In this document: piece by piece, positions 964 through 61,279 of the stretch | How the letters are laid out: each line of letters starts with the position of its first letter | How positions within the stretch are numbered: position 1 is the first letter of the stretch | Source of the DNA: Sphyrna mokarran | Taxonomy: Eukaryota | Direction of reading: 5' to 3' | Assembly: GCA_024679065.1 (NCBI GenBank) | Contig: JAGIQG010000017.1 | Coordinates: forward strand, 50,220,001 to 50,284,000 | DNA: 64,000 nucleotides | Program-made: the position numbers and the translations under genes | The notes under the pieces: generated by a model | Databases searched by the model: none | The model's input: only the letters and a program-made list of their open reading frames with translations | Told to the model about the DNA's origin: nothing

Positions 964-1380
964 ACTCTGACAAAAGGTCATCTAGACTCAAAACATTGTT
1001 CTATTCTCTCCCCAAGGGCGGCATGGTAGCACAGTGGTTAGCACTGCTGCTTCACAGCTCTGGGGACCTGGGTTCGATTCCCAGCTTGGGTTACTGTCTG
1101 TGTGGAGTTTGCAAATTCTCCTCGTGTCTGCATGGGTTTCTTCCCACAGTCCAAAGTTGTGCAGGTTAGGTTGATTGGCCATGCTAAAATTGCCCCTTAG
1201 TATCCTGAGATGCGTTAGTTAGAGGGTAATGGGTAAAGTATGTAGGGATATGGGGGTAGGGCCTGGGTGGGATTGTGGTTGGTGCGGACTGAATGGCCTC
1301 TTTCTGTACTGTAGGGTTTCTATTACTTTTATGATACTGTCAGACTTGCTGAGATTTTCCAGCATTTTCTGTTTTTGTGC
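964..1380 (+). mobile_element. Penelope-derived terminal fragment split by an HE1 SINE (parts 964-1015 and 1333-1380)
   Basis: ctgacaaaaggtcatctagactcaaaac...ctctcccc resumes as gatactgtcagacttgctgagattttccagc after the SINE; contiguous in the 47085-47207 copy. Confidence 0.7.
1016..1334 (+). mobile_element. HE1-type V-SINE (tRNA head, V domain, CR1 tail)
   Basis: A-box-like tagcacagtgg, B-box ggttcgattcc, V domain gtgtctgcatgggtttc..cccacagtccaaag, CR1-type tail gaatggcctctttctgtactgta. Confidence 0.9.
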
Positions 1381-2894: not shown

Positions 2895-3425
2895 GATCAT
2901 ATTCTCAGAAGGCCAAGGAAATTTGGCATGTCAGCTACAACTCTCACCAACTTTTATAGATGCACCATAGAAAGCATTCTGGCCGGTTGTATCACAGCTT
3001 GGTATGGTTCCTGCTCTGCCCAAGACCACAAGGAACTATAAAACGTTGTGAATGTAGCCCAGTCCATCATTCAAACCAGCCTCCCATTCATTGACTCTGT
3101 CTACACTCACCACTGCCTCGGAAAAGCAGCCAGTATAATTAAGAATCCCATGCATTCTCTTCCACTTACCGTTGGGAAAAAGATACAAAAGTCTGAAGTC
3201 ACATACCAACCAATCTAAGAACAGCTTCTTCCCTGCTGCCATCAGACTTCTGAATGGACCTACTTTGCATTAAGTTGATCTTTCTCTACACCCTAGCTAT
3301 AAATGTAACATTATATTCTGCACTCTGTCCTTTCCTTCTCCATGAACGGTATGCTTTGTCCATTTAGCACCCAAGAAGCAATACTTTTCACTGTACTAAT
3401 ACATGTAACAATAATAAATCAAATC
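2895..3425 (+). mobile_element. Rex1/Babar-type LINE 3' fragment
   Basis: Encodes KFGMSATTLTNFYRCTIESILAGCITAWYGSCSAQD; ends aataataaatcaaatc. Confidence 0.8.
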
Positions 3426-7200: not shown

Positions 7201-7349
7201 TGAAGAAGCTACTCTCTTATCCCCAGGAGGAACTATTGTGTATGATTTATTCCTTCACTCTTGGCATGTCTCCCATATTTGACCCTCCGTGAATTTGGTG
7301 TTATCCAAAATCTGCAGCTAGTTCCATTCTTCGATCATCCCTGGCCTGG

Positions 7350-7693
7350 AAAGGTGATGGAGGAGTGGTATCGCCACTGGACTAGTAACCCAGAGACCAA
7401 GGTTAATGCTCTGGGGATTTGGATTCGGATTCCAGCATCACAGATTGTGAAATTTGAATTCAATAAAAGTCTGCAATTAAAAGGCTACTGAACATGAAAT
7501 CATTGTTGATTGTTGTAAAAAAACTCATCTGGTTCACTGTGTCCTTTAGGGAAGGAAATCTGTCTCTCTCACCTGGTCTGGCGTACATGTGACTCCAGAT
7601 CTGTAACAACGTGGTTGACTCTTAAATGCCCAGAGGAATGGGCAATAAATGCTGGCCCAACCAGCAATGCCCACATCCCATGAATAAATAAAA
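7350..7693 (+). mobile_element. tRNA-derived SINE family C (full length)
   Basis: gtggtatcgccactggactagtaacccagag head, ggaaggaaatctg..catgtgactccag body, gggcaataaatgctggcc..cccacatcccatgaat tail. Confidence 0.85.
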
Positions 7694-7719
7694 ACCTACA
7701 CTGGCTCTAAGGCAGGCAA

Positions 7720-13817: not shown

Positions 13818-14199
13818 CTAAAGGAAGAAACAACCAACCAAAATCAGTGGAACATGCAATCAAACTTTCAAAGGTGATCTCGAGAATGTTTGTTTGCGCA
13901 CAAGGAAAGCACCAATGCACTGGCTAACATATCTTTCTTCAGCTAAATTAACTAAACAAAAATGACCATTCAGTAGATCAAAGCTACTAAATGAGAAAAT
14001 GCAGTGCCCACAAAGTTTGAGCATATGTCTTACAGAAAGTTCACCCCAGGGTGGGGTGGCTTTATTGACTCAGTTTGAGAGAGATTGCAATATGCTGCTA
14101 TTGCATCCAGCTTTATACCACATTGGACCTGGGAGCTCTTCATGTTAGCATAGAGTACAGAAGTCAGCAAAATTCTTAACTTTGATCTCTTCAATTTGA

Positions 14200-14550
14200 T
14201 TTTTTTTATTCATTCGTGGGACGTGGACATCACTGGCTGACCAGCATTTATTGGCCATCCCTTGAAACTGAGCGACTTGCTCGGCCATTTCAGAGCAGCC
14301 AACAGTACTGTGGTTCTGGATTCACATATAGGCCGGGCCGAGTAAAGATGACAGATTTCCTTTCCTAAGGTGAATGAAATAAGTATTTCCGACAATGGGT
14401 TTGTGGTCATCAGTTGATTCTTAATTTCAGATTTTTTTTATATTGAATACAAATTCCACCATCTGCCGTGGCGGGATTCGAACCCGGGTCCACATAACAT
14501 TAGCTAGATTAACAATCTAGCAATCGTACTACTAGGCTGTCGCTTCCCCA
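14200..14550 (-). mobile_element. SINE family C (full length)
   Basis: Reverse complement with B-box gggttcgaatccc and tail cccacgaatgaataaaaaa. Confidence 0.85.
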
Positions 14551-21789: not shown

Positions 21790-22075
21790 GCATTGTCTCT
21801 TCATTTCTCTCAAATGTATGAAACATACATTTTTCACGTGGTTGCGTGGGTTTTCTCCGGGCACTCCGGTTTCCTCCCACAACCCAAAAATTCGCTCTTA
21901 GGCTGATTGGGAAACAATTTGTCCCTGTGGTGAGAATTTTCCATATTAGGAATAATATATATATTATTATATAGGAATATTAAAATAGGATAATGGATTT
22001 GGTACTATATAGTATGACGGCGGCGCGGGCTCGTTGGGCCGAAGGGCCTGTTTCCCGTGCTGTGTTGCTTAATAA
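21790..22075 (+). mobile_element. V-domain plus CR1-tail fragment related to the composite CR1 3' UTR
   Basis: gcgtgggttttctccgggcactccggtttcctcccaca..gctcttaggctgattgg and tail ggcggcgcgggctcgttgggccgaagggcctgtttcccgtgctgt, as at 30210-30420. Confidence 0.7.
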
Positions 22076-28790: not shown

Positions 28791-28957
28791 ACATCATCCT
28801 CTCCCGCTGCCTCTCAAACCCAGCACAACTAGTTTCATTTAGTTATGCATTTACCTATCATAATCATTAGATTAGATATATATGCACAGAAACAGGCTGT
28901 TTGGCCCTCCCAGCCCATGGTCATGTTTATGTATCATGTCTTTTTAGATCTAAATCG

Positions 28958-29192
28958 AGGGGGGTGGCACAGTGGTTAGCGCTGCTGCCTCACTGCGCCA
29001 GGGACTCTATCCTCAGTTTGGGTCACTGCATGTACGGAGTTTGTGCATTCTCCCCATGTCTGCGTGGGTTTCCTCTGGGTGCTTCAGTTCCGTTCCACAG
29101 TCTGAAAGACGTGCTGGTTAGATGCATTGGCTGTGTAAATTTTCCCTCCGTGTATCCAAAAGGTAGCGACTAGGGGGATTTTCATGTAACTT
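28958..29192 (+). mobile_element. V-SINE family B split by a CR1 insertion (remainder at 30422-30468)
   Basis: Tail breaks at ..ggattttcatgtaactt and resumes cagtgcagtgttattgtaagcctacttgt. Confidence 0.85.
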
Positions 29193-30421
29193 ATCCTGAT
29201 AAATGTGAGGTGATGCATTTCGGGAGAAAGAATGTAGTGGGGAGGTATATGATAAAGGGTAGACCTATTAAGAGTATAGAAACGCAAAGGGACCTGGGGA
29301 TGCAGGTGAACAAGTCTCTGAAGGTGGCAGAGCAAGTGGAGAAGGTTGTGAAGAAAGCATATAGTATGCCAGCCTTTATAGGAAGGGGTATAGAGTACAA
29401 GAGCTGGCCTTTAATGTTGCAGTTGTATAAACATTGGTTAGACCTCATTTGGAATACTGCATCCAGTTCTGGTCGCCTTACTACCGGAAGGACGTGGGGA
29501 CTCTGGAGAGAGTGCAGAGGAGGTTTACCAGGATGCTGCCTGGTATGGAAGGTCTGAGTTACGAGGAGAGGTTAGGCAAATTGGGACTGTTTTCCTTAGA
29601 AAGACATAGACTTAGAGGAGATCTAATAGAGTGTACAAGATTATGAGGGGTATAGATAGAGTAAACAGGGTTAAGCTTTTTCCTAGGATGGACTCAAATA
29701 GCACGAGGGGTCACGGGTTTAGGGTGAGGGGGGTAAGGTATAATTTGGATGCTAGAGGGAGTTTTTTCACACACAGGGTGGTGGGGGTATGGAATGCGCT
29801 GCCAAGTAAAGTGGTGGAGGCAGGTACTCTGGAGTTATTTAAGAAATACTTAGATGGGTACATGAACAGAATGGGAATGGAGGGGGATAGAAAACTGATT
29901 TAAAATAGGGATCATGAGCCTTGGGAGTCCCTGGGAAGTGTGTAAATAGATGATGATATTGATGTGCTTGTTTTTATCCTACAGGTGCTTTGGTCCACCT
30001 TGTTGTCTAACGAGGGGGCATACACTCGATGGGTCGTGAGAGGTCTGCTCTTGGATCTTTTGAGAGTATCCTACTGCTTCACGTTGTTAGCATATGCTTG
30101 ACCTGGACCATCTGATGGGCAACACGACAGCTCAGTGACTATCGCTGTGCTGTGCAGATACATGGATTTGGGCCTGTGTCTGTGGGAGTTTGCGCATTCT
30201 CCCCGTGCTTGCGTGGGTTTTCTCCGGGAGCTCCGGTTTCCTCCCACATCTCAAAGATGTGCTCTTAGGCTAATTGGCAAAACAAATTCTCCCTAAATTG
30301 TCTCAAATTTGGTTGTTAATCCATAGATCTATAAACATAGACAGGGATCACGGGTAGAGGTGGGAACATCAGGGTGGCGGCGCAGGCTTGTTGGGCCAAA
30401 GGGCCTGTTTCGTTCTTTGTT
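29193..30421 (+). mobile_element. Young 5'-truncated CR1 with long 3' UTR containing a V domain
   Basis: Frameshifted ORFs 29210-29903 ([33 protein letters not shown]); 3' UTR nearly identical to 57061-57591. Confidence 0.92.
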
Positions 30422-30579
30422 CAGTGCAGTGTTATTGTAAGCCTACTTGTAACATAAATAAATAAATCTAGCATCAAAACTATGTATTCCTTCTCCCTTA
30501 AATACTTAGCCAGCTTCCCTTTAAATGCATCTATACTTTGCTTCAACTATTCTCTGTGGTGGTGAGTTCCTGATACGAA

Positions 30580-34369: not shown

Positions 34370-35632
34370 CATAGAACATAGAACACTACAGCACAAACAG
34401 GCCCTTCGGCCCACAAGTTGTGCCGAACACATCAAAACCTACCCAGCCATAGACCTATCTATAACCCCCAATCCCATTGGATCCCATATACTCATCCAGA
34501 AGTCTTTTAAAAGACCCCAGCGAGGTCGCCTCGACCACCACCGACGGCAGCCGATTCCATTCACTCACCACCCTCTGAGTGAAAAACTTTCCCCTAGCAT
34601 CCCCTCTGTACTTGCTTCCCTGCACCTTTAATCTGTGCCCTCTCGTCGCGACCATTTCAGCCCTGGGAAATAGTCTCTGAGAGTCCACCCTATCTATTCC
34701 TCTCAACAGCTTGTAAACCTCTATCAGGTCGCCTCTCAACCTTCGTCTCTCCAGGGAGAACAGCCCCAGCTCCCTCAACCTGTCTTCATAAGGCATGCCT
34801 CCCAATCCAGGCAACATCCTTGTAAATCTCCTCTGCACCCTTTCAATAGCTTTCACGTCCTTCCTATAGTGAGGCGACCAGAACTGCGCACAGTACTCCA
34901 AGTGTGGTCTGACAAGGGTCCTATAAAGCTGCAGCATTACCTCCTGACTCGTGAACTCAATCCCTCGATGAATGAAGGCCAGTACACCGTAAGCTTTCTT
35001 AACCACATCCTCCACCTGGGAGGCCGATTTGAGAGTCTTATGGACCCGGACCCCAAGATCCCTTTGCTCTTCCACACAGCTAAGACTCCTACCTTTGATA
35101 GTGTACTCATTCATCCCGTTGGATCTGCCAAAATGGACCAAAACACATTTATCCGCGTTGAAGTCCATCTGCCACTTCTCCGCCCAGTCTTGCATCCGGT
35201 CGATGTCCTGCTGCAACTTTTGACATCCCTCCAGACCATCCACAACACCACCGACCTTCGTGTCATCGGCGAACTTACTCACCCATCCCTCCACTTCCTC
35301 ATCAGGTCATTTATGAAAATGACAAACAGCAAGGGTCCTAGAACAGATCCCTGGGGTACTCCACTGGTGACTGACCTCCATGCAGAAAAAGAGCCATCCA
35401 CAACCACCCTCTGCCTTCTGCAGGCAAGCCAGTTCTGGATCCACAAGGCCAAAGCCCCTTGGATCCCAGGGCCTCTCACCTTCTCAAGAAGTCTTGCATG
35501 TGGGACCTTGTCAAATGCCTTGTTGAAGTCCATGTACACCACATCCACTGCTCTTCCTTCGTCAATGTGTTCAGTCACATTTTCGAAGAACTCAATTAAG
35601 CTTGTAAGGCACGACCTGCCTTTTACAAAACC
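34370..35632 (-). mobile_element. Young 5'-truncated CR1 (RT domain, one frameshift near 35300)
   Basis: ORFs 35279-35578 ([21 protein letters not shown]) and 34455-35294 ([14 protein letters not shown]); (atagaac)n tail; many CpGs retained. Confidence 0.95.
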
Positions 35633-48114: not shown

Positions 48115-48620
48115 CAACTCTTTGCCTCCCTAAAGCCTGTCCACCATCTACAAGGCACAAGTCAGGAGCATGATGGAATACTCTCCATTTGCCTGAATGA
48201 GTGCAGCTCCAACAACACTCAAGAAACTTGACACCTTCCAGGTCAAAGCAACCCGCTTGATTGCTGGTCTATCCACAAACATTCACTCCCTCTAACACAG
48301 TGACAGCCATGTGTACAATCTACAAGATGCACTGCAGGAATTCGCCAAGGTTCCTTAGGCAGCACCTTCCAAACTCTGAAGGGACAATGGCAGCAGACAC
48401 CCATGACCACCTGGAAATTCCCCTCTAAGCTATCCTGACATGAAAATATATTGCCATTCCTCCACTGTCACTGAGTCAATATCCTGGAACTCCCTTCTTA
48501 AGAAGCACTGTCAGTGTACCTCCCCATGGATTGCAACGGTTCAAGAAGACAGTCTACCTTTTCAATGGTAACTAGGGATGCATGGGATGGCAACACCCAC
48601 ATTCTATTAATTAATTTTTT
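48115..48620 (+). mobile_element. LINE 3' fragment (CR1/L2 group) sharing its tail with SINE family C
   Basis: Encodes LSTIYKAQVRSMMEYSPFA*MSAAPTTLKKLDT; ends actagggatg..cacccacattc. Confidence 0.75.
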
Positions 48621-48621
48621 T

Positions 48622-48968
48622 TAATCCATTCATGGGTTTTGCTGGCTGGCCAGCATTTATTGTCCATCCCTAGCTATCCGCAGGCAGTTGAGAGTCAACT
48701 ACATTGCTGTGACTCTGGAATCACATGTAGCCAGACTCGGTAAGGACAGCAGATTTCCTTTCCTACAGACATTAGCGAAACAAATGGGTTTTTCCAACAA
48801 TCAACAATGATTTCATGGTCATCAGTAGATTCTTAATTCCAAATTTGTTTTTATTGAATTCAAATTCCACCACCTGCTGTGGTGGGATTCAAACTCGGGT
48901 CCCCAGAACATTGGCTAAGTCTCTGGATTAATAGTCTAATGATAATACCACTAGGCCATTACCTTCCC
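48622..48968 (-). mobile_element. SINE family C (full length)
   Basis: Closely similar to 14200-14550. Confidence 0.85.
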
Positions 48969-49557: not shown

Positions 49558-49960
49558 GCTCCTGCTCTGCTCAAGACTGCAAGAAATTAGAAAAGGTTGT
49601 GAATGTAGCTCAGTGCATCATGCAAACCCCCAGCCTCCCATCTATTGTCTCTGTCTACTCTTCCCACTGCCTCGACAAAGCAGCCAGCATTAATAAGGAT
49701 CCCATGCACTCTGGACGTTTCTCTCTTCCATCTTTTTCCATCAGGTCATGTAACAACTGACTCAAGAACAGCTTCTTGCCTGCTGTCATCAACTTTTGAA
49801 TGGACCCACCTCGCATTAAGTTGATCTTCCCAGTTATGATTGTAACACCAGAATCTGTACTTTCTCCTTTCCTTCTCAATGAACATATGCTTTGTCTGTC
49901 TAGCACTCAAGAAACAATACTGTTTCCCAATACACTTGGCAATAATAAATCAAATCAAAC
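49558..49960 (+). mobile_element. Rex1/Babar LINE 3' fragment
   Basis: SCSAQDCKKLEKVVNVAQ; ends aataataaatcaaatcaaa; matches ~3008-3425. Confidence 0.8.
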
Positions 49961-50093: not shown

Positions 50094-50170
50094 TCAAAGA
50101 ACAAAGAACAAAGAACAACACAGCACGGGAAACAGGCCCTTCAGCCCAACGAGCCCACGCTGCTGTCTTA
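50094..50170 (-). mobile_element. Tail-only copy of the composite-CR1 lineage
   Basis: (caaagaa)3 followed by cagcacgggaaacaggcccttcagcccaacgagccc. Confidence 0.75.
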
Positions 50171-54057: not shown

Positions 54058-54789
54058 CGGTAACGACCATATTTCACATGGGGGAAGACATGTTGATGAA
54101 CAGAGGGATCTTGGTGTATATGTGCATAGATCCCTGAAAGTTGGCAATCAAGTCGATAAAGTTGTTAAGAAGGCATATGGAGTCTTAGCTTTTATTGGCA
54201 GGGGGATTGAATTTAGGAGCCGCAGCATCATGTTGCAATTGTACAAAACTCTAGTGCGGCCGCACTTGGAGTATTGTGTGCAGTTCTGGTCCCCGCATTA
54301 TAAGAAAGATGTGGAGGCTTTGGAGAGGGTACAGAGGAGGGTTACCAGGATGTTGCCTGGTATGGAGGGCATGTCTTATGAGGAGAGGCTGAGGGATTTG
54401 AGGTTGTTTTCGTTAGAAAGAAGGCGGCTAAGAGGAGACCTTATTGCAACATATAAGATGATTAGAGGTTTAGATAGGGTGGACAGTGATAGCCTTTTTC
54501 CTAGGATGGATAAAGCTAGCACGAGGGGACACAGCTTTAAATTAAGGGGTGATAGTTATAGGACGGATATCAGAGTAGGTTCTTTACCCAAAGGGTGGTT
54601 CGGGAGTGGAATGCCCTGCCTGCAGCAGTTGTAGATGCGCCAAGTTTGGTGGCGTTTAAGAGGTTAGTAGATAAGTTTATGGACGAAAAGGGAATGGTTT
54701 AGTTTGGAGGGTCATGGCTTTTTCCTAATTGGTCGGCGCAACATCGAAGGCCGAAGGGCCTGTTCTGCACTGTAATGTTCTATGTTCTA
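54058..54789 (+). mobile_element. Young CR1 3' fragment
   Basis: ORF 54050-54634 ([29 protein letters not shown]); tail tgttctatgttcta. Confidence 0.92.
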
Positions 54790-54926: not shown

Positions 54927-55205
54927 TGATTTTGATTTGATTTATTATTGTCGCATGTATTAGCATACAGTGAAAAGTATTGTTTCTTGCACGCTACACA
55001 GACAAAGCATATCGTTCATCAAGAAGGAAATGAGAGAGTGCAGAAGGTACTGTTACAGTCAGAGCTAGGATGCTGAGAAAGATCAACTTAATGTGAGGTA
55101 GGTCCATTCAAAAGTCTGACAGCAGCAGGGAAGAAGCTGTTCTTGAGTTGGCTGGTACGTGACCTAGACTTATTTATCTTTTTCCAGACGGAGTAAGGTG
55201 GAAGA
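54927..55205 (-). mobile_element. Rex1/Babar tail
   Basis: gattttgatttgatttattattgtc..cagcagggaagaagctgttcttgag. Confidence 0.8.
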
Positions 55206-56230: not shown

Positions 56231-57060
56231 TAGCTATTGTTGTTTATCAAGGGAGAGAGAGAAATGCCCAAGTAATCACTGACCAGTCCTCTCAAACTGG
56301 TAGTGGGAAAATGATTGAAAAGAATTCTGATGCACAGTCCAAACTGCCATTTGGAAAGCACAAGTCAAAGATGGATAGCATGATAGAGTCATGCGAGGTG
56401 AACATGATTGAATTTTTTTGCTTGAGGAGATAACAAGAAAGACTTTTGCCAAATGGCAGAAAGGGATCAGGAAATTGACTGAGTCTCCATGGGCCCTTGG
56501 CAAAAGGTGTCACCCTATTCTCTTTCCATCTGGTCATCTCTCTACAAGAGCTCTTTCCTAGATTGTGCAGCCATCAGCTCTTGGAAAGAGTTGTTCTCCT
56601 TTGCCCCATCCTCCTCGTGTCCACTCTTGGTCTTTCAGGGTTGTTTTCCTCATATTTATACAATTCTCATTTAAACGTTTTAACAAATTGTGCTATCATC
56701 ACTGCTTCCATAGGAATTCCACTTCCTTACATCTCTCCTTTTAGTTGTTTTGATGACCTTCAATTTCTTTCCTTCAGCCTGTGAACAACAATCTGCATTT
56801 GTATAGCACCTTCAACCACACACTATCTCATGGTGCTACATAGGAGTCTCAGCAAACACGATTTGACACTAAGCAATATAAGGGGATACTCGGACAGATG
56901 ATCAAAAGCTTAGTCAAAGTAGAATGTTTCAAGAAGCCTCTTCGGAGGCAGAGTGAAAGGTAAAGGGAAATGAGGGGTTAGGAATTAGAATGTGCTCAGG
57001 GTGTGGTGGAGGCAGGGTCAAGTGAGGCTTTCAAAAGTGAATTGGATCATTAATTGAAAA

Positions 57061-58748
57061 GAACAAAGAACAAAACAGCACGGGAAACAGGCCCTTCGGC
57101 CCAATGAGCCCGTGCCGCCACCCCGATGTTCCCACGTCTACCCGCGATCCCTGTCCATGTTTATAGATCTATGGATTAACAACCAAATTTGAGACAATTT
57201 AGGGAGAATCTGTTTTGCCAATTAGCCTAAGAGCACATCTTTGGGATGTGGGAGGAAACCGGAGCTCCCGGAGAAAACCCACGCAAGCACGGGGAGAATG
57301 CGCAAACTCCCACAGATACAGGCCCAAATCCATGTATCTGCACAGCCCAGCGATAGTCACTGAGCTGTCGCGTTGCCCATCAAATGGTCCAGGTCAAGCA
57401 TACACTAACAGCGTGAAGCACTAGGATACTCTCGAAAAAAATCCAAGAGCAGCCCTCTCACAACCATTGCGTGTATACACCTTGTTAGACAACAAGGTGG
57501 ACTAAAGCACCTGTAGGATAAAAACAAGTACATCAATATCATCATCTATTTACATACTTCCCAGGGACTCCCAAGACTCATGATCCCTATTTTAAATCAG
57601 TTTTCTATACCCCTCCATTCCCATTCTGTTCATGCGCCCATCTAAGTATTTCTTAAATAACTCCAGAGTACCTGCCTCCACCACTTTACTTGGCAGCGCA
57701 TTCCATACCCGCACCACCCTCTGTGTGAAGAAACTCCCTCTAGCATCCAAATTATACCTTACCCCCCTCACCCTAAACCCGTGACCCCTTGTGCTATTTG
57801 AGTCCATCCTAGGAAAAAGCTTAACCCTGTTTACTCTATCTATACCCTTCATAATCTTGTACACCTCTATTAGATCACCTCTAAGTCTACGTCTTTCTAA
57901 GGAAAACAGTCCCAATTTGCCTAACCTCTCCTCATAACTCAGACCTCCTATATCAGGCAGCATCCTGGTAAACCTCCTCTGCACTCTCTCCAGAATCTCC
58001 ACATCCTTCCGGTAGTAGGGTAACCAGAACTGGACACAGTATTCTATATGAGGTCTAACCAACATTTTATACAACTGCAACATTAAAGGCCAGCTCTTGT
58101 ACTCTATATCCCTTCCTATAAAGGCTAACATACTATATGCTTTCTTCACAACCTTCTCCACTTGCTCTGCCACCTTCAGAGATTTGTTCACCTGCACCCC
58201 TAGGTCCCTCTGCGTTTCTATACTCTTAATAGGTCTACCCTTTATCATATACCTCCCCCCTACATTCTTTCTCCCAAAATGCATCACCTCACATTTATCA
58301 GGATTGAATTCCATCTGCCATCTATCTGCCCAAGCTACCACCTATGTCCTGCTGCATCCCTGACAATGCCCTCACTATCCGCAAGTCCAGCCATCTTTGT
58401 ATCGTCTGCAAACTTGCTGATCACTCCACTTACTCCCTCTTCCAAGTCATTTATATATATTACAAATAGAAGAGGTCCCAGTACCGAGCCCTGCGGCACA
58501 CCACTAGTGACCGACCTCCAGCTAGAAAAACACCCTTCCACTATTACTCTCTGTCTCCTATTACTAAGCCAGTTACTTATCCATCTAGCTACCTGTCCTT
58601 GTATCCCATTAGCCTTGACCTTCTCAACTAACCTCCCATGAGGGACTTTGTCAAACGCTTTACTAAAATCCATATAGACGACATCAACAACTCGCCCGTC
58701 GTCCACTGTTTTCGTCACCTCCTCAAAAAATTCTACCAGATTCGTAAG
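57061..58748 (-). mobile_element. Young 5'-truncated CR1 with V domain in the 3' UTR
   Basis: ORFs 58335-58718 ([27 protein letters not shown]) and 57592-58341; tail (gaacaaa)n; inserted in an older CR1 tail (57001-57060 and 58749-58855). Confidence 0.95.
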
Positions 58749-59076
58749 GGCAAAAGGGCAAACGTTGCAGGGACATAAGGAAAGGATAGTGCTCAGGTAC
58801 TAGGAGAAATGCTCAAGTACAATGGGCCGAATGGGCTCCTTCTGTGCTGCAACCACAGGGCCTGGATAGCTGAAAGCATGGTCACCAATGATGGCGATGG
58901 AAAGAGACCAGAATTAAAGGAACACAGAGTTGAATGGCTGAGGAGATTATCGAGAGACAGGGAGAGAAGGGTAAAGTCAGGGAAGGATTTGAAACCAAGT
59001 TGAGAATTTGTAATTCAATCTCCAATATAGTCTGATGAGCATAGGAGTGATGGGAAAATGGTGTAATAAGGTCAAA

Positions 59077-60359: not shown

Positions 60360-60862
60360 TAGAACCATGGAATACAATCCCAGCCGTTCAAAAAGAGGCC
60401 ACTCAGTCCATCAAATCTGCAGTGATTCCCTAAAAGGGCATCCTAACCAAGCTCCCCGCTTTCCTCCATCCCCATAACTTCACACATTTACCATGGCCAA
60501 TCCACCTAACTTGCACATCTTAGAACACTAAGGCGCAATTTACTATGGCCAATCCACCTAACCTGTATATCTTGGGACACTAAGGAGCAATTTATCATGG
60601 CCAATACACCTCACCTGTACATCCTGGGACACTAAGGGGCAATTTAGCATGGCCAAACCACCTTAACCTGTACATCTCAGGACACTAAGGTGCAATTTAG
60701 CACGGCCAATCCGCCTAACCTGTATATCTTTGGACTGTGGGAGGAAATCCAAGCACCAGAGGAAACACAGGCAAACTTCACACAGTCACCCAAGGCTGGA
60801 ACTGAACCCAGGTCCCTGGCACAGTGAGGCAGCAGTGTTAGTCACTCTGCCACCGTGTTGCG
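60360..60862 (-). mobile_element. HE1-type V-SINE with internal tandem expansion
   Basis: Tail at 60360-60490, array at 60491-60732, V domain and head to 60862. Confidence 0.88.
60491..60732. repeat. 52-bp tandem repeat, ~4.6 copies
   Basis: a(t/c)ggccaa unit starts at 60493, 60545, 60597, 60649 and 60702. Confidence 0.9.
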
Positions 60863-61279
60863 CATCTGGGGTTTTAAAAAAAAAGTTCACCGTGTTCCCC
60901 CACCTCTTAGCAGAACAGACACTTTCTCACAGGATGGTGCTGATGCACCAGATTTAGATTAACTTTCTTTGCAAGCTGACCCACTCAAACACAAAGTAAA
61001 AACTGCAACATTAGGAATAATCAATAGTGCCAGAACCCAATTAGTGTCGGCTATTTACATGGGTCACAGCAATCCACTTTCCAACAGCCCTTCACAATAA
61101 ATGGACAAGTTGCTATAATTGCATCATTATTCTTTTCGAGTAATTCACAGGCTGGGAGTGTCGCTAATGAAGCCAGCATTCCTTTGTCCATCCCTGGTTA
61201 CCCTTGCGGCAGTGATGAACTGGTGAACTTCATGTAGGGAGGGTACTTTGCACTGTTGCTGAGCAGGGAGCTTTGCAAA

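What the first reader, a model, noticed from the sequence alone, without database searches (positions are those of the whole stretch)
29904..30421. CR1 LINE family with a V-SINE domain embedded in its 3' UTR
Seen: after the ORF2 stop come ~270 nt of non-SINE sequence, then a V domain (tgtctgtgggagtttgcgcattctccccgtgcttgcgtgggttttctccggg..ccggtttcctcccaca, ~30178-30275) without a recognisable B box, then a CR1 tail. The same arrangement occurs at 57061-57591 on the minus strand, so it was amplified as one unit rather than being a chance nesting. A diverged relative at 21790-22075 and a tail at 50094-50170 suggest a lineage. Inference: a LINE captured and kept the conserved SINE central domain, whose function is unresolved, or shows how that domain moves between elements.
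Basis: partly seen in the sequence, partly recalled or inferred. Interest (0 to 1): 0.7.

Follow-up and report, generated by a model that had tools for sequence, protein, structure and literature searches.

The report
CR1 LINE carrying a captured V-SINE
A shark-type CR1 retrotransposon, present here as two separate insertions, carries the remains of a small parasitic element (a V-SINE with a broken promoter but a well-kept V domain) in its 3' untranslated end, which would likely allow a direct test of what that deeply conserved domain does.

Summary
The composite is real. Two CR1 copies (29193-30421 +; about 57058-58760 -) are 94% identical over 1223 nt. They have unrelated flanks, opposite orientation and different 5' truncations, so they are separate insertions. 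Both carry a 518-534-nt 3' UTR; two other CR1s here have about 85 nt.

Upstream of V lies a decayed tRNA-derived SINE head (30117-30166) whose B-box hairpin (18 nt) is deleted. So a V-SINE head plus V domain was taken in, not a bare domain. The head has drifted (33/50 like the local SINE consensus) while V has not (74/83; Fisher p=0.002). The donor was probably a third V-SINE lineage, since its V resembles MER6/Ac1 as much as the local families. The terminal stem-loop is CR1-type.

Likely mechanism: one SINE capture ahead of the LINE's recognition tail, loss of the Pol III promoter, then amplification by target-primed reverse transcription. Selection on V inside the LINE is suggested, not shown. 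Ten paper searches found no such CR1. Dfam, Repbase and shark genomes could not be checked. New variant of a known kind; interest 0.5.

The parts
29193..29903 (+). Copy A: 5'-truncated CR1 ORF2, C-terminal part, two frameshifts, stop TAA 29901-29903
29904..30114 (+). Copy A: 211-nt UTR segment of unknown origin, found only in copies A and B; holds a splice-acceptor-like motif at 29971-29986
30117..30166 (+). Copy A: decayed tRNA-derived V-SINE head with mutated A box; the 18-nt B-box hairpin is deleted at 30166/30167
30167..30295 (+). Copy A: V domain (30167-30250) and its 3' extension; homology ends where the published ~120-nt V consensus ends
   Evidence: by eye
30296..30365 (+). Copy A: spacer, shared only with copy B
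30366..30421 (+). Copy A: CR1-type stem-loop tail and short TTCTTTG-type repeat; about 12 nt of the lower stem missing relative to copy B
28954..29192 (+). Host V-SINE (free family 2), 5' part, into which copy A inserted
30422..30470 (+). Host V-SINE, 3' tail resuming after copy A; rejoins the 5' part without a duplication
57592..58760 (-). Copy B: 5'-truncated CR1 ORF2 with part of the RT domain (PF00078) and an open 249-codon C-terminus
57058..57591 (-). Copy B: 534-nt 3' UTR (head remnant 57378-57329, V and extension 57328-57200, tail about 57130-57058)
21835..22075 (+). Element C: 5'-truncated relative; 3' half of V plus extension 83% like copy B, spacer not alignable, tail 84% like copy B
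50094..50170 (-). Element D: tail of the same type with TTCTTTG repeats; no V domain found upstream

Best explanation
A CR1 LINE of a cartilaginous fish carries a promoter-broken V-SINE head and its V domain inside a ~520-nt 3' UTR, likely taken in by one capture ahead of the LINE's own stem-loop tail, and the composite was likely copied as one RNA by the LINE's reverse transcriptase. Shown: the anatomy, two separate insertions, the SINE origin of the insert, the B-box deletion, a CR1-type tail, and protein-level constraint on this ORF2 lineage. Inferred: the reverse transcriptase reads only the terminal stem-loop, so upstream sequence rides along. An intact head would likely have made a Pol III transcript (head + V + CR1 tail), that is a ready-made SINE competing for the LINE's enzyme, so loss of the B box was probably tolerated or favoured. 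The V domain was probably kept under some RNA-level constraint while the head decayed (about 40% likely). The donor was probably a V-SINE lineage other than the two abundant in this window.
For: Separate insertions. Head remnant: (8 of 10 differences in the first 31 nt are transitions). B-box deletion in 0 of 19 free copies. Tail: the 18-nt upper stem-loop of copy B is identical to that of the short-UTR CR1 at 34412. It differs by 4-6 nt from 13 of the 14 other-type (HE-like) tail matches listed; the 14th differs by 2. The lower stem differs between families while still pairing. ORF2 changes specific to this lineage: 27 of 74 third positions versus 36 of 307 first and second positions. Head versus V: 33/50 versus 74/83, p=0.0016. 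Over head columns 11-53 copy A (26/42) is below all 19 free copies (0.74-0.93), while its V (0.89) lies within their range (0.78-0.92). By eye against the Ac1-family alignment of PMC6887750, about 5 of 15 invariant head columns are broken versus about 3 of 57 invariant V columns, p=0.008. Five of five V-core CpG sites are intact in A and B versus 15 of 78 in free copies, which argues against capture of a long-dead methylated copy.
Against: Only two copies span the ORF2-UTR-V junction, both truncated and broken; no full-length element was seen. A versus B: V plus extension 3/129 differences versus 28/377 in the rest of the UTR (p=0.035), but p=0.31 without CpG sites and p=0.25 against ORF2. The V segment folds no better than shuffles (z -0.2 to -1.0). 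No significant target duplication around the insert (182 and 569 of 3000 shuffles as good). The 211-nt segment before the head is unexplained by a simple SINE insertion. The tail could have come with the SINE (rival 1). Several states shared by A, B and C also occur in bony-fish Ac1 families and MER6, so their clade (100/99) may predate capture.
Confidence: 0.55

Rival explanations
1. Tail adoption: a complete V-SINE of a third family (head + V + CR1-derived tail, 305 nt) landed downstream of a CR1 that had lost its own tail, and the LINE adopted the whole SINE as its new 3' end. Elements C and D would be truncated copies of that SINE family.
For: 30117-30421 is SINE-sized. No native stem-loop tail follows the stop codon. 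C and D share the tail type and have no ORF2. The V variant is not one of the two abundant local families.
Against: None of the 25 free V-bearing hits shows this tail, by reading their printed sequences and the tail list. The spacer of C does not align with that of A/B (47 of 500 shuffles as good). The upper stem is the same as in an ordinary CR1 of the window.
Confidence: 0.25
2. Passive hitch-hiking: read-through from one CR1 source locus into flanking DNA that held an old V-SINE and a short CR1 tail fragment gave a low-copy 3' transduction, with no function for V.
For: 211 nt of non-repetitive DNA with a splice-acceptor-like motif precede the head. Only two copies were seen. A and B diverge almost neutrally (11 synonymous, 19 non-synonymous codons).
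Against: Two copies in 64 kb suggest many in the genome (inference). CpG sites in V are intact (5/5 versus 15/78). The head decayed much more than V. C is a second lineage with the same V-then-tail order.
Confidence: 0.13
3. Reverse direction: V is an old part of some CR1 3' UTRs and V-SINEs got it from such a LINE.
For: Kojima 2018 (PMC5786205) proposes that SINE bodies derive from LINEs.
Against: A tRNA-derived SINE head lies directly upstream of V in the LINE. Two other CR1s of the window and L001 have short UTRs without V. V occurs from cnidarians to vertebrates.
Confidence: 0.03
4. Local segmental duplication or gene conversion of one chance SINE-in-LINE nesting.
For: Both copies lie within 30 kb and are 94% identical.
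Against: Homology stops at the element ends, the 5' ends differ by about 450 nt, and copy A alone sits inside a host SINE that rejoins cleanly.
Confidence: 0.02

Closest known systems
Canonical CR1 LINEs of elasmobranchs (HER1 of sharks and rays is the named example; PMC3747384 table)
   Same: RT-bearing ORF2 whose nearest named relatives are shark and ray proteins (69% Stegostoma, 61-62% Leucoraja, Mobula, Mustelus); 5' truncation; stem-loop tail with a short repeat; no target duplication at copy A.
   Different: 3' UTR of 518-534 nt holding a SINE head and V domain, against about 85 nt in the two other CR1s examined here. ORF2 forms a long separate branch. The HER1 sequence itself was not available for comparison.
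V-SINEs (HE1 of sharks and rays, Ac1, DANA; PMC4824008, PMC6887750)
   Same: tRNA-type head followed by the V domain, colinear over about 200 consensus positions. V core about 84-85% like the published V consensus by eye.
   Different: B box deleted, A box mutated, no separate SINE tail of either local family, and fused downstream of an ORF2: not an independent Pol III unit.
MER6/MER6A (PMC6887750)
   Same: A V-SINE body carried by another class of mobile element. The V core here is about 77/85 like MER6 by eye, as close as to the local consensus (76/85).
   Different: MER6 is a non-autonomous Mariner DNA element and lacks the tRNA head per that paper. Here the carrier is a LINE that moves through RNA, so V lies in the transposing transcript.
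LINE families that absorbed other repeats at their ends (BovB/RTE, some rodent L1 3' UTRs; recalled, papers not held; one search gave nothing on it). Also Ingi-3_AC with a Ceph/RTE-like stretch (PMC5786205)
   Same: A LINE lineage carrying SINE-related sequence in an untranslated end.
   Different: None recalled involves the V domain or a CR1. The Ingi case is in the 5' UTR and concerns an RTE-derived segment.

Membership tests
CR1 clade LINE | ORF2 with reverse transcriptase related to CR1 | tested here: met
   PF00078 E=1.2e-16; groups with shark and ray proteins in a 19-row tree. The hits are named RT or uncharacterised, so the label CR1 rests on my knowledge of the family.
CR1 clade LINE | 3' stem-loop followed by a short tandem repeat, no poly(A) | tested here: met
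   Predicted hairpin, z -1.9 (B) and -2.4 (C), TTCTTTG repeats
CR1 clade LINE | 5'-truncated copies, little or no target duplication | tested here: met
   Host SINE of copy A rejoins without duplication; A and B truncated at different points
CR1 clade LINE | APE endonuclease domain and esterase-type ORF1 | not testable with these tools
   Both copies are truncated before these parts; no eukaryote genome collection available
V-SINE | V domain | tested here: met
   74/83 to the local consensus; matches the published V consensus by eye
V-SINE | tRNA-derived head with intact A and B boxes | tested here: not met
   Head remnant present but B box deleted and A box altered; ARAGORN and Rfam find nothing here
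V-SINE | Stand-alone short non-coding element | tested here: not met
   Fused to ORF2 in both copies that reach that far; open for elements C and D
HE1/HER1 pair | Sequence identity with published HE1 and HER1 | not testable with these tools
   The original V-SINE paper is not held, and a search for HER1 with HE1 gave 0 papers. The name HE1-type for one local family is recalled. The tail differs from that family's tail.

The most novel reading that the evidence does not exclude
An autonomous CR1 family has domesticated the V domain as a cis-acting RNA element: it shed the SINE promoter and tail but kept exactly the ~120-nt conserved domain across at least two diverged lineages. It is also the missing intermediate through which V-SINEs acquire new LINE tails. 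It would be the first LINE known to me that carries a conserved SINE domain in its 3' UTR, and a native assay system for what V does.
Probability: 0.25. Interest if true: 0.75.

Novelty: new variant of a known kind. Interest (0 to 1): 0.5.

Why it matters
Why SINE central domains such as V stay conserved for hundreds of millions of years is an open question. [quoted passage not shown] Kojima's 2018 Repbase-wide SINE/LINE comparison (PMC5786205) also reports no sequence similar to the conserved bodies, apart from the RTE-derived half of Ceph. A LINE that carries V in its own transposing RNA would be a counter-example. It separates V from the Pol III promoter and allows a plus/minus-V retrotransposition assay in an element that encodes its own enzyme. 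If V is only a passenger, the case is still a clean record of SINE capture and promoter loss, but of specialist interest only.

Tried and rejected
Looking for copies outside the window: a pattern scan of GTDB genomes gave 0 matches. An ORF2 scan gave 1 locus among 174 candidate stretches, a 547-nt short-UTR CR1 fragment without V. Searches with chance reading frames across the head/V junction gave nothing, or 18 weak hits, none at E<=1e-10 and mostly over the V part (unnamed, not examined). These collections hold little shark non-coding DNA, so the blanks mean little.

Rfam: 0 matches in the window at gathering score and 0 in either UTR at E<=5.

A decayed target duplication (AGGGATC at 29907 and 30343) was not significant. 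A special fold for V was not supported. Homology of D's upstream DNA to C's spacer was borderline (50 of 1000 shuffles; E=0.92) and is not claimed.

I first read ten states shared by A, B and C as changes made after capture. Three are CpG artefacts or common in free copies, and others recur in Ac1 families and MER6, so that argument was dropped. In the V tree (20 of 25 free V-bearing hits used) the automatic tail label of s61271 is wrong (HE-type), and the placement of the A/B/C clade among free families is unsupported.

The 2026 CR1 survey (PMC13343379) lists shark CR1 consensus sequences, but cells are cut at 400 characters, so their 3' UTRs could not be seen. It may already hold this family. 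One supplementary file of PMC4824008 was not searched.

Full report
Setting. The window is repeat-rich animal DNA (42% GC) with many SINE and CR1 fragments. The C-terminal 249 aa of the element's ORF2 has its nearest named relatives in sharks and rays: Stegostoma 69%, Mustelus 62%, Leucoraja and Mobula 61%, birds 39-55%. Another CR1 of the window is 85% identical to a Mustelus protein. The host is therefore most likely an elasmobranch (inference).

The observation. Copy A (29193-30421, +) and copy B (about 57058-58760, -) align at 94.1% over 1223 nt and not beyond. B runs about 450 nt further 5' and includes part of the RT domain. A sits inside a free V-SINE whose halves (28954-29192, 30422-30470) rejoin without a duplication. 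These are two separate insertions of one composite, not a segmental duplication. After the stop (29901-29903) the UTR is 518 nt in A and 534 nt in B. The CR1s at 34372-35611 and 54086-54789 have about 85 nt and no V.

What the insert is. A profile search found 33 hits: the two composites, element C, four internal tandem repeats of one SINE, one head-only hit and 25 free V-bearing copies. A consensus of the 19 free copies that keep a head aligns colinearly with 30115-30295, with one 18-nt gap covering the B-box hairpin. None of the 19 has that deletion. A 31-column head matrix scores the LINE segments 21.7 and 19.5 bits; the best other non-training position among 127,940 scores 10.5, and 0 of 2000 shuffles reached either score. 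The 23-column A-box core alone is weaker, 7 and 8 of 2000. Eight of ten differences in the first 31 nt are transitions. So the LINE holds a SINE head plus V, not a bare domain. Homology ends near 30295, about where the published V consensus ends (by eye) and close to where the two local SINE families diverge into different tails. The 211 nt before the head and the 70-nt spacer after V match nothing else in the window or in Rfam.

The tail. The 18-nt upper stem-loop of B is identical to that of the CR1 at 34412 and of element C. It differs by 4-6 nt from 13 of 14 HE-like tail matches ('HE1-type' is a recalled label). The lower stem differs between families but still pairs in the predicted folds. 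Copy A lacks about 12 nt of the lower stem. ORF2 changes specific to the A/B lineage fall mainly at third positions (27/74 versus 36/307), so the source lineage was under protein-level selection. A and B themselves differ almost neutrally (11 synonymous, 19 non-synonymous among 234 codons).

Was V kept by selection? For: head 33/50 versus V 74/83 against the CpG-restored consensus (p=0.0016), with the head below all 19 free copies and V within their range. In the Ac1-family alignment of PMC6887750, heads of 17 fish families keep invariant A-box columns. By eye the LINE breaks about 5 of 15 invariant head columns but about 3 of 57 invariant V columns (p=0.008; hand counts). All five V-core CpG sites are intact against 15 of 78 in free copies. 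Element C keeps V plus extension (79/95) and tail (47/56) while its spacer does not align. Against: A versus B shows no significant V conservation without CpG sites (p=0.31). V has no unusual folding energy. C may be a SINE. And selection against the promoter alone could explain part of the head/V contrast.

Donor. A, B and C form a clade against 20 free copies (100/99). However, several of their shared states also occur in MER6 and bony-fish Ac1 families, and B's V core is as close to MER6 (about 77/85 by eye) as to the local consensus (76/85). The donor was probably a third V-SINE lineage, or these sites recur by homoplasy.

Mechanism. Shown: anatomy, independent insertion, SINE origin, promoter loss, CR1-type tail. 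From established knowledge of stringent LINEs (PMC3747384): the enzyme recognises the 3' end of its RNA. Inferred: one capture placed a V-SINE upstream of that signal, and the composite spread as a unit (0.55). An intact head would have spawned a competing SINE, so the B box was lost. V was probably constrained (about 0.4). Rivals: adoption of a whole SINE as the new tail (0.25), low-copy transduction (0.13), LINE as source of V (0.03), local duplication (0.02).

Prior knowledge. Ten full-text searches (listings seen, one search was noise) showed no report of a CR1 with V in its UTR. Read: PMC4824008 passages and one of two supplement files searched. PMC5786205 abstract, passages, parts 3-4 of 5. 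PMC5499810 part 1 of 6. PMC6887750 parts 1-2 of 5 and supplement parts 12-13 of 17. PMC11481361, PMC4758252, PMC5804259, PMC3747384 and PMC8620236 passages. PMC13343379 passages and a truncated supplement. PMC5804259 states that no such conserved domains had been found in LINEs. MER6 is the known case of V in another element class. LINEs absorbing SINEs (BovB, rodent L1) is recalled, not read. The original V-SINE paper was not held. Dfam, Repbase and shark assemblies could not be searched, so prior cataloguing, for instance as an unremarked consensus in PMC13343379, remains possible.

Verdict. A real composite, better described as a CR1 that captured a V-SINE and lost its promoter. New variant of a known kind. 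Interest 0.5, or 0.75 if constraint on V within an autonomous family is confirmed (probability about 0.25).

Noticed in passing
window 60486-60866 (-): A V-SINE with about four extra tandem copies (~52 nt) of the segment just after V.
   Followed up: no
window, free V-SINE copies (e.g. 1016, 18790, 38960, 41188): Several copies carry a ~19-nt deletion between the short GGTTT-type repeats inside V, either recurrent slippage or a subfamily.
   Followed up: no
window-wide: Two abundant free V-SINE families share head and V but have different tails, one CR1-like and one ending in an A-rich run; they separate in the V tree.
   Followed up: partly
window 29971-29986 and 57524-57509: Splice-acceptor-like motif (T run, then CAG/G) in the unexplained 211-nt UTR segment of both copies.
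   Followed up: no
window 29907 and 30343: The motif AGGGATC occurs just after the stop and again before the tail; a similar motif opens the UTR of the CR1 at 54.7 kb. Not significant in shuffles.
   Followed up: yes
L001 1-547: A CR1 3' end of elasmobranch type in an Aeromonas cavernicola assembly, probably contamination; CR1-like RT hits labelled Proteus mirabilis and Clostridioides difficile likewise.
   Followed up: partly
window 1010-1092: The head of one free V-SINE is called as a tRNA-like gene by ARAGORN.
   Followed up: no
window 3009-3425, 49560-49959, 54931-55205; 7348-7694, 14196-14537, 48611-48968: Two further interspersed repeat families, not identified.
   Followed up: no
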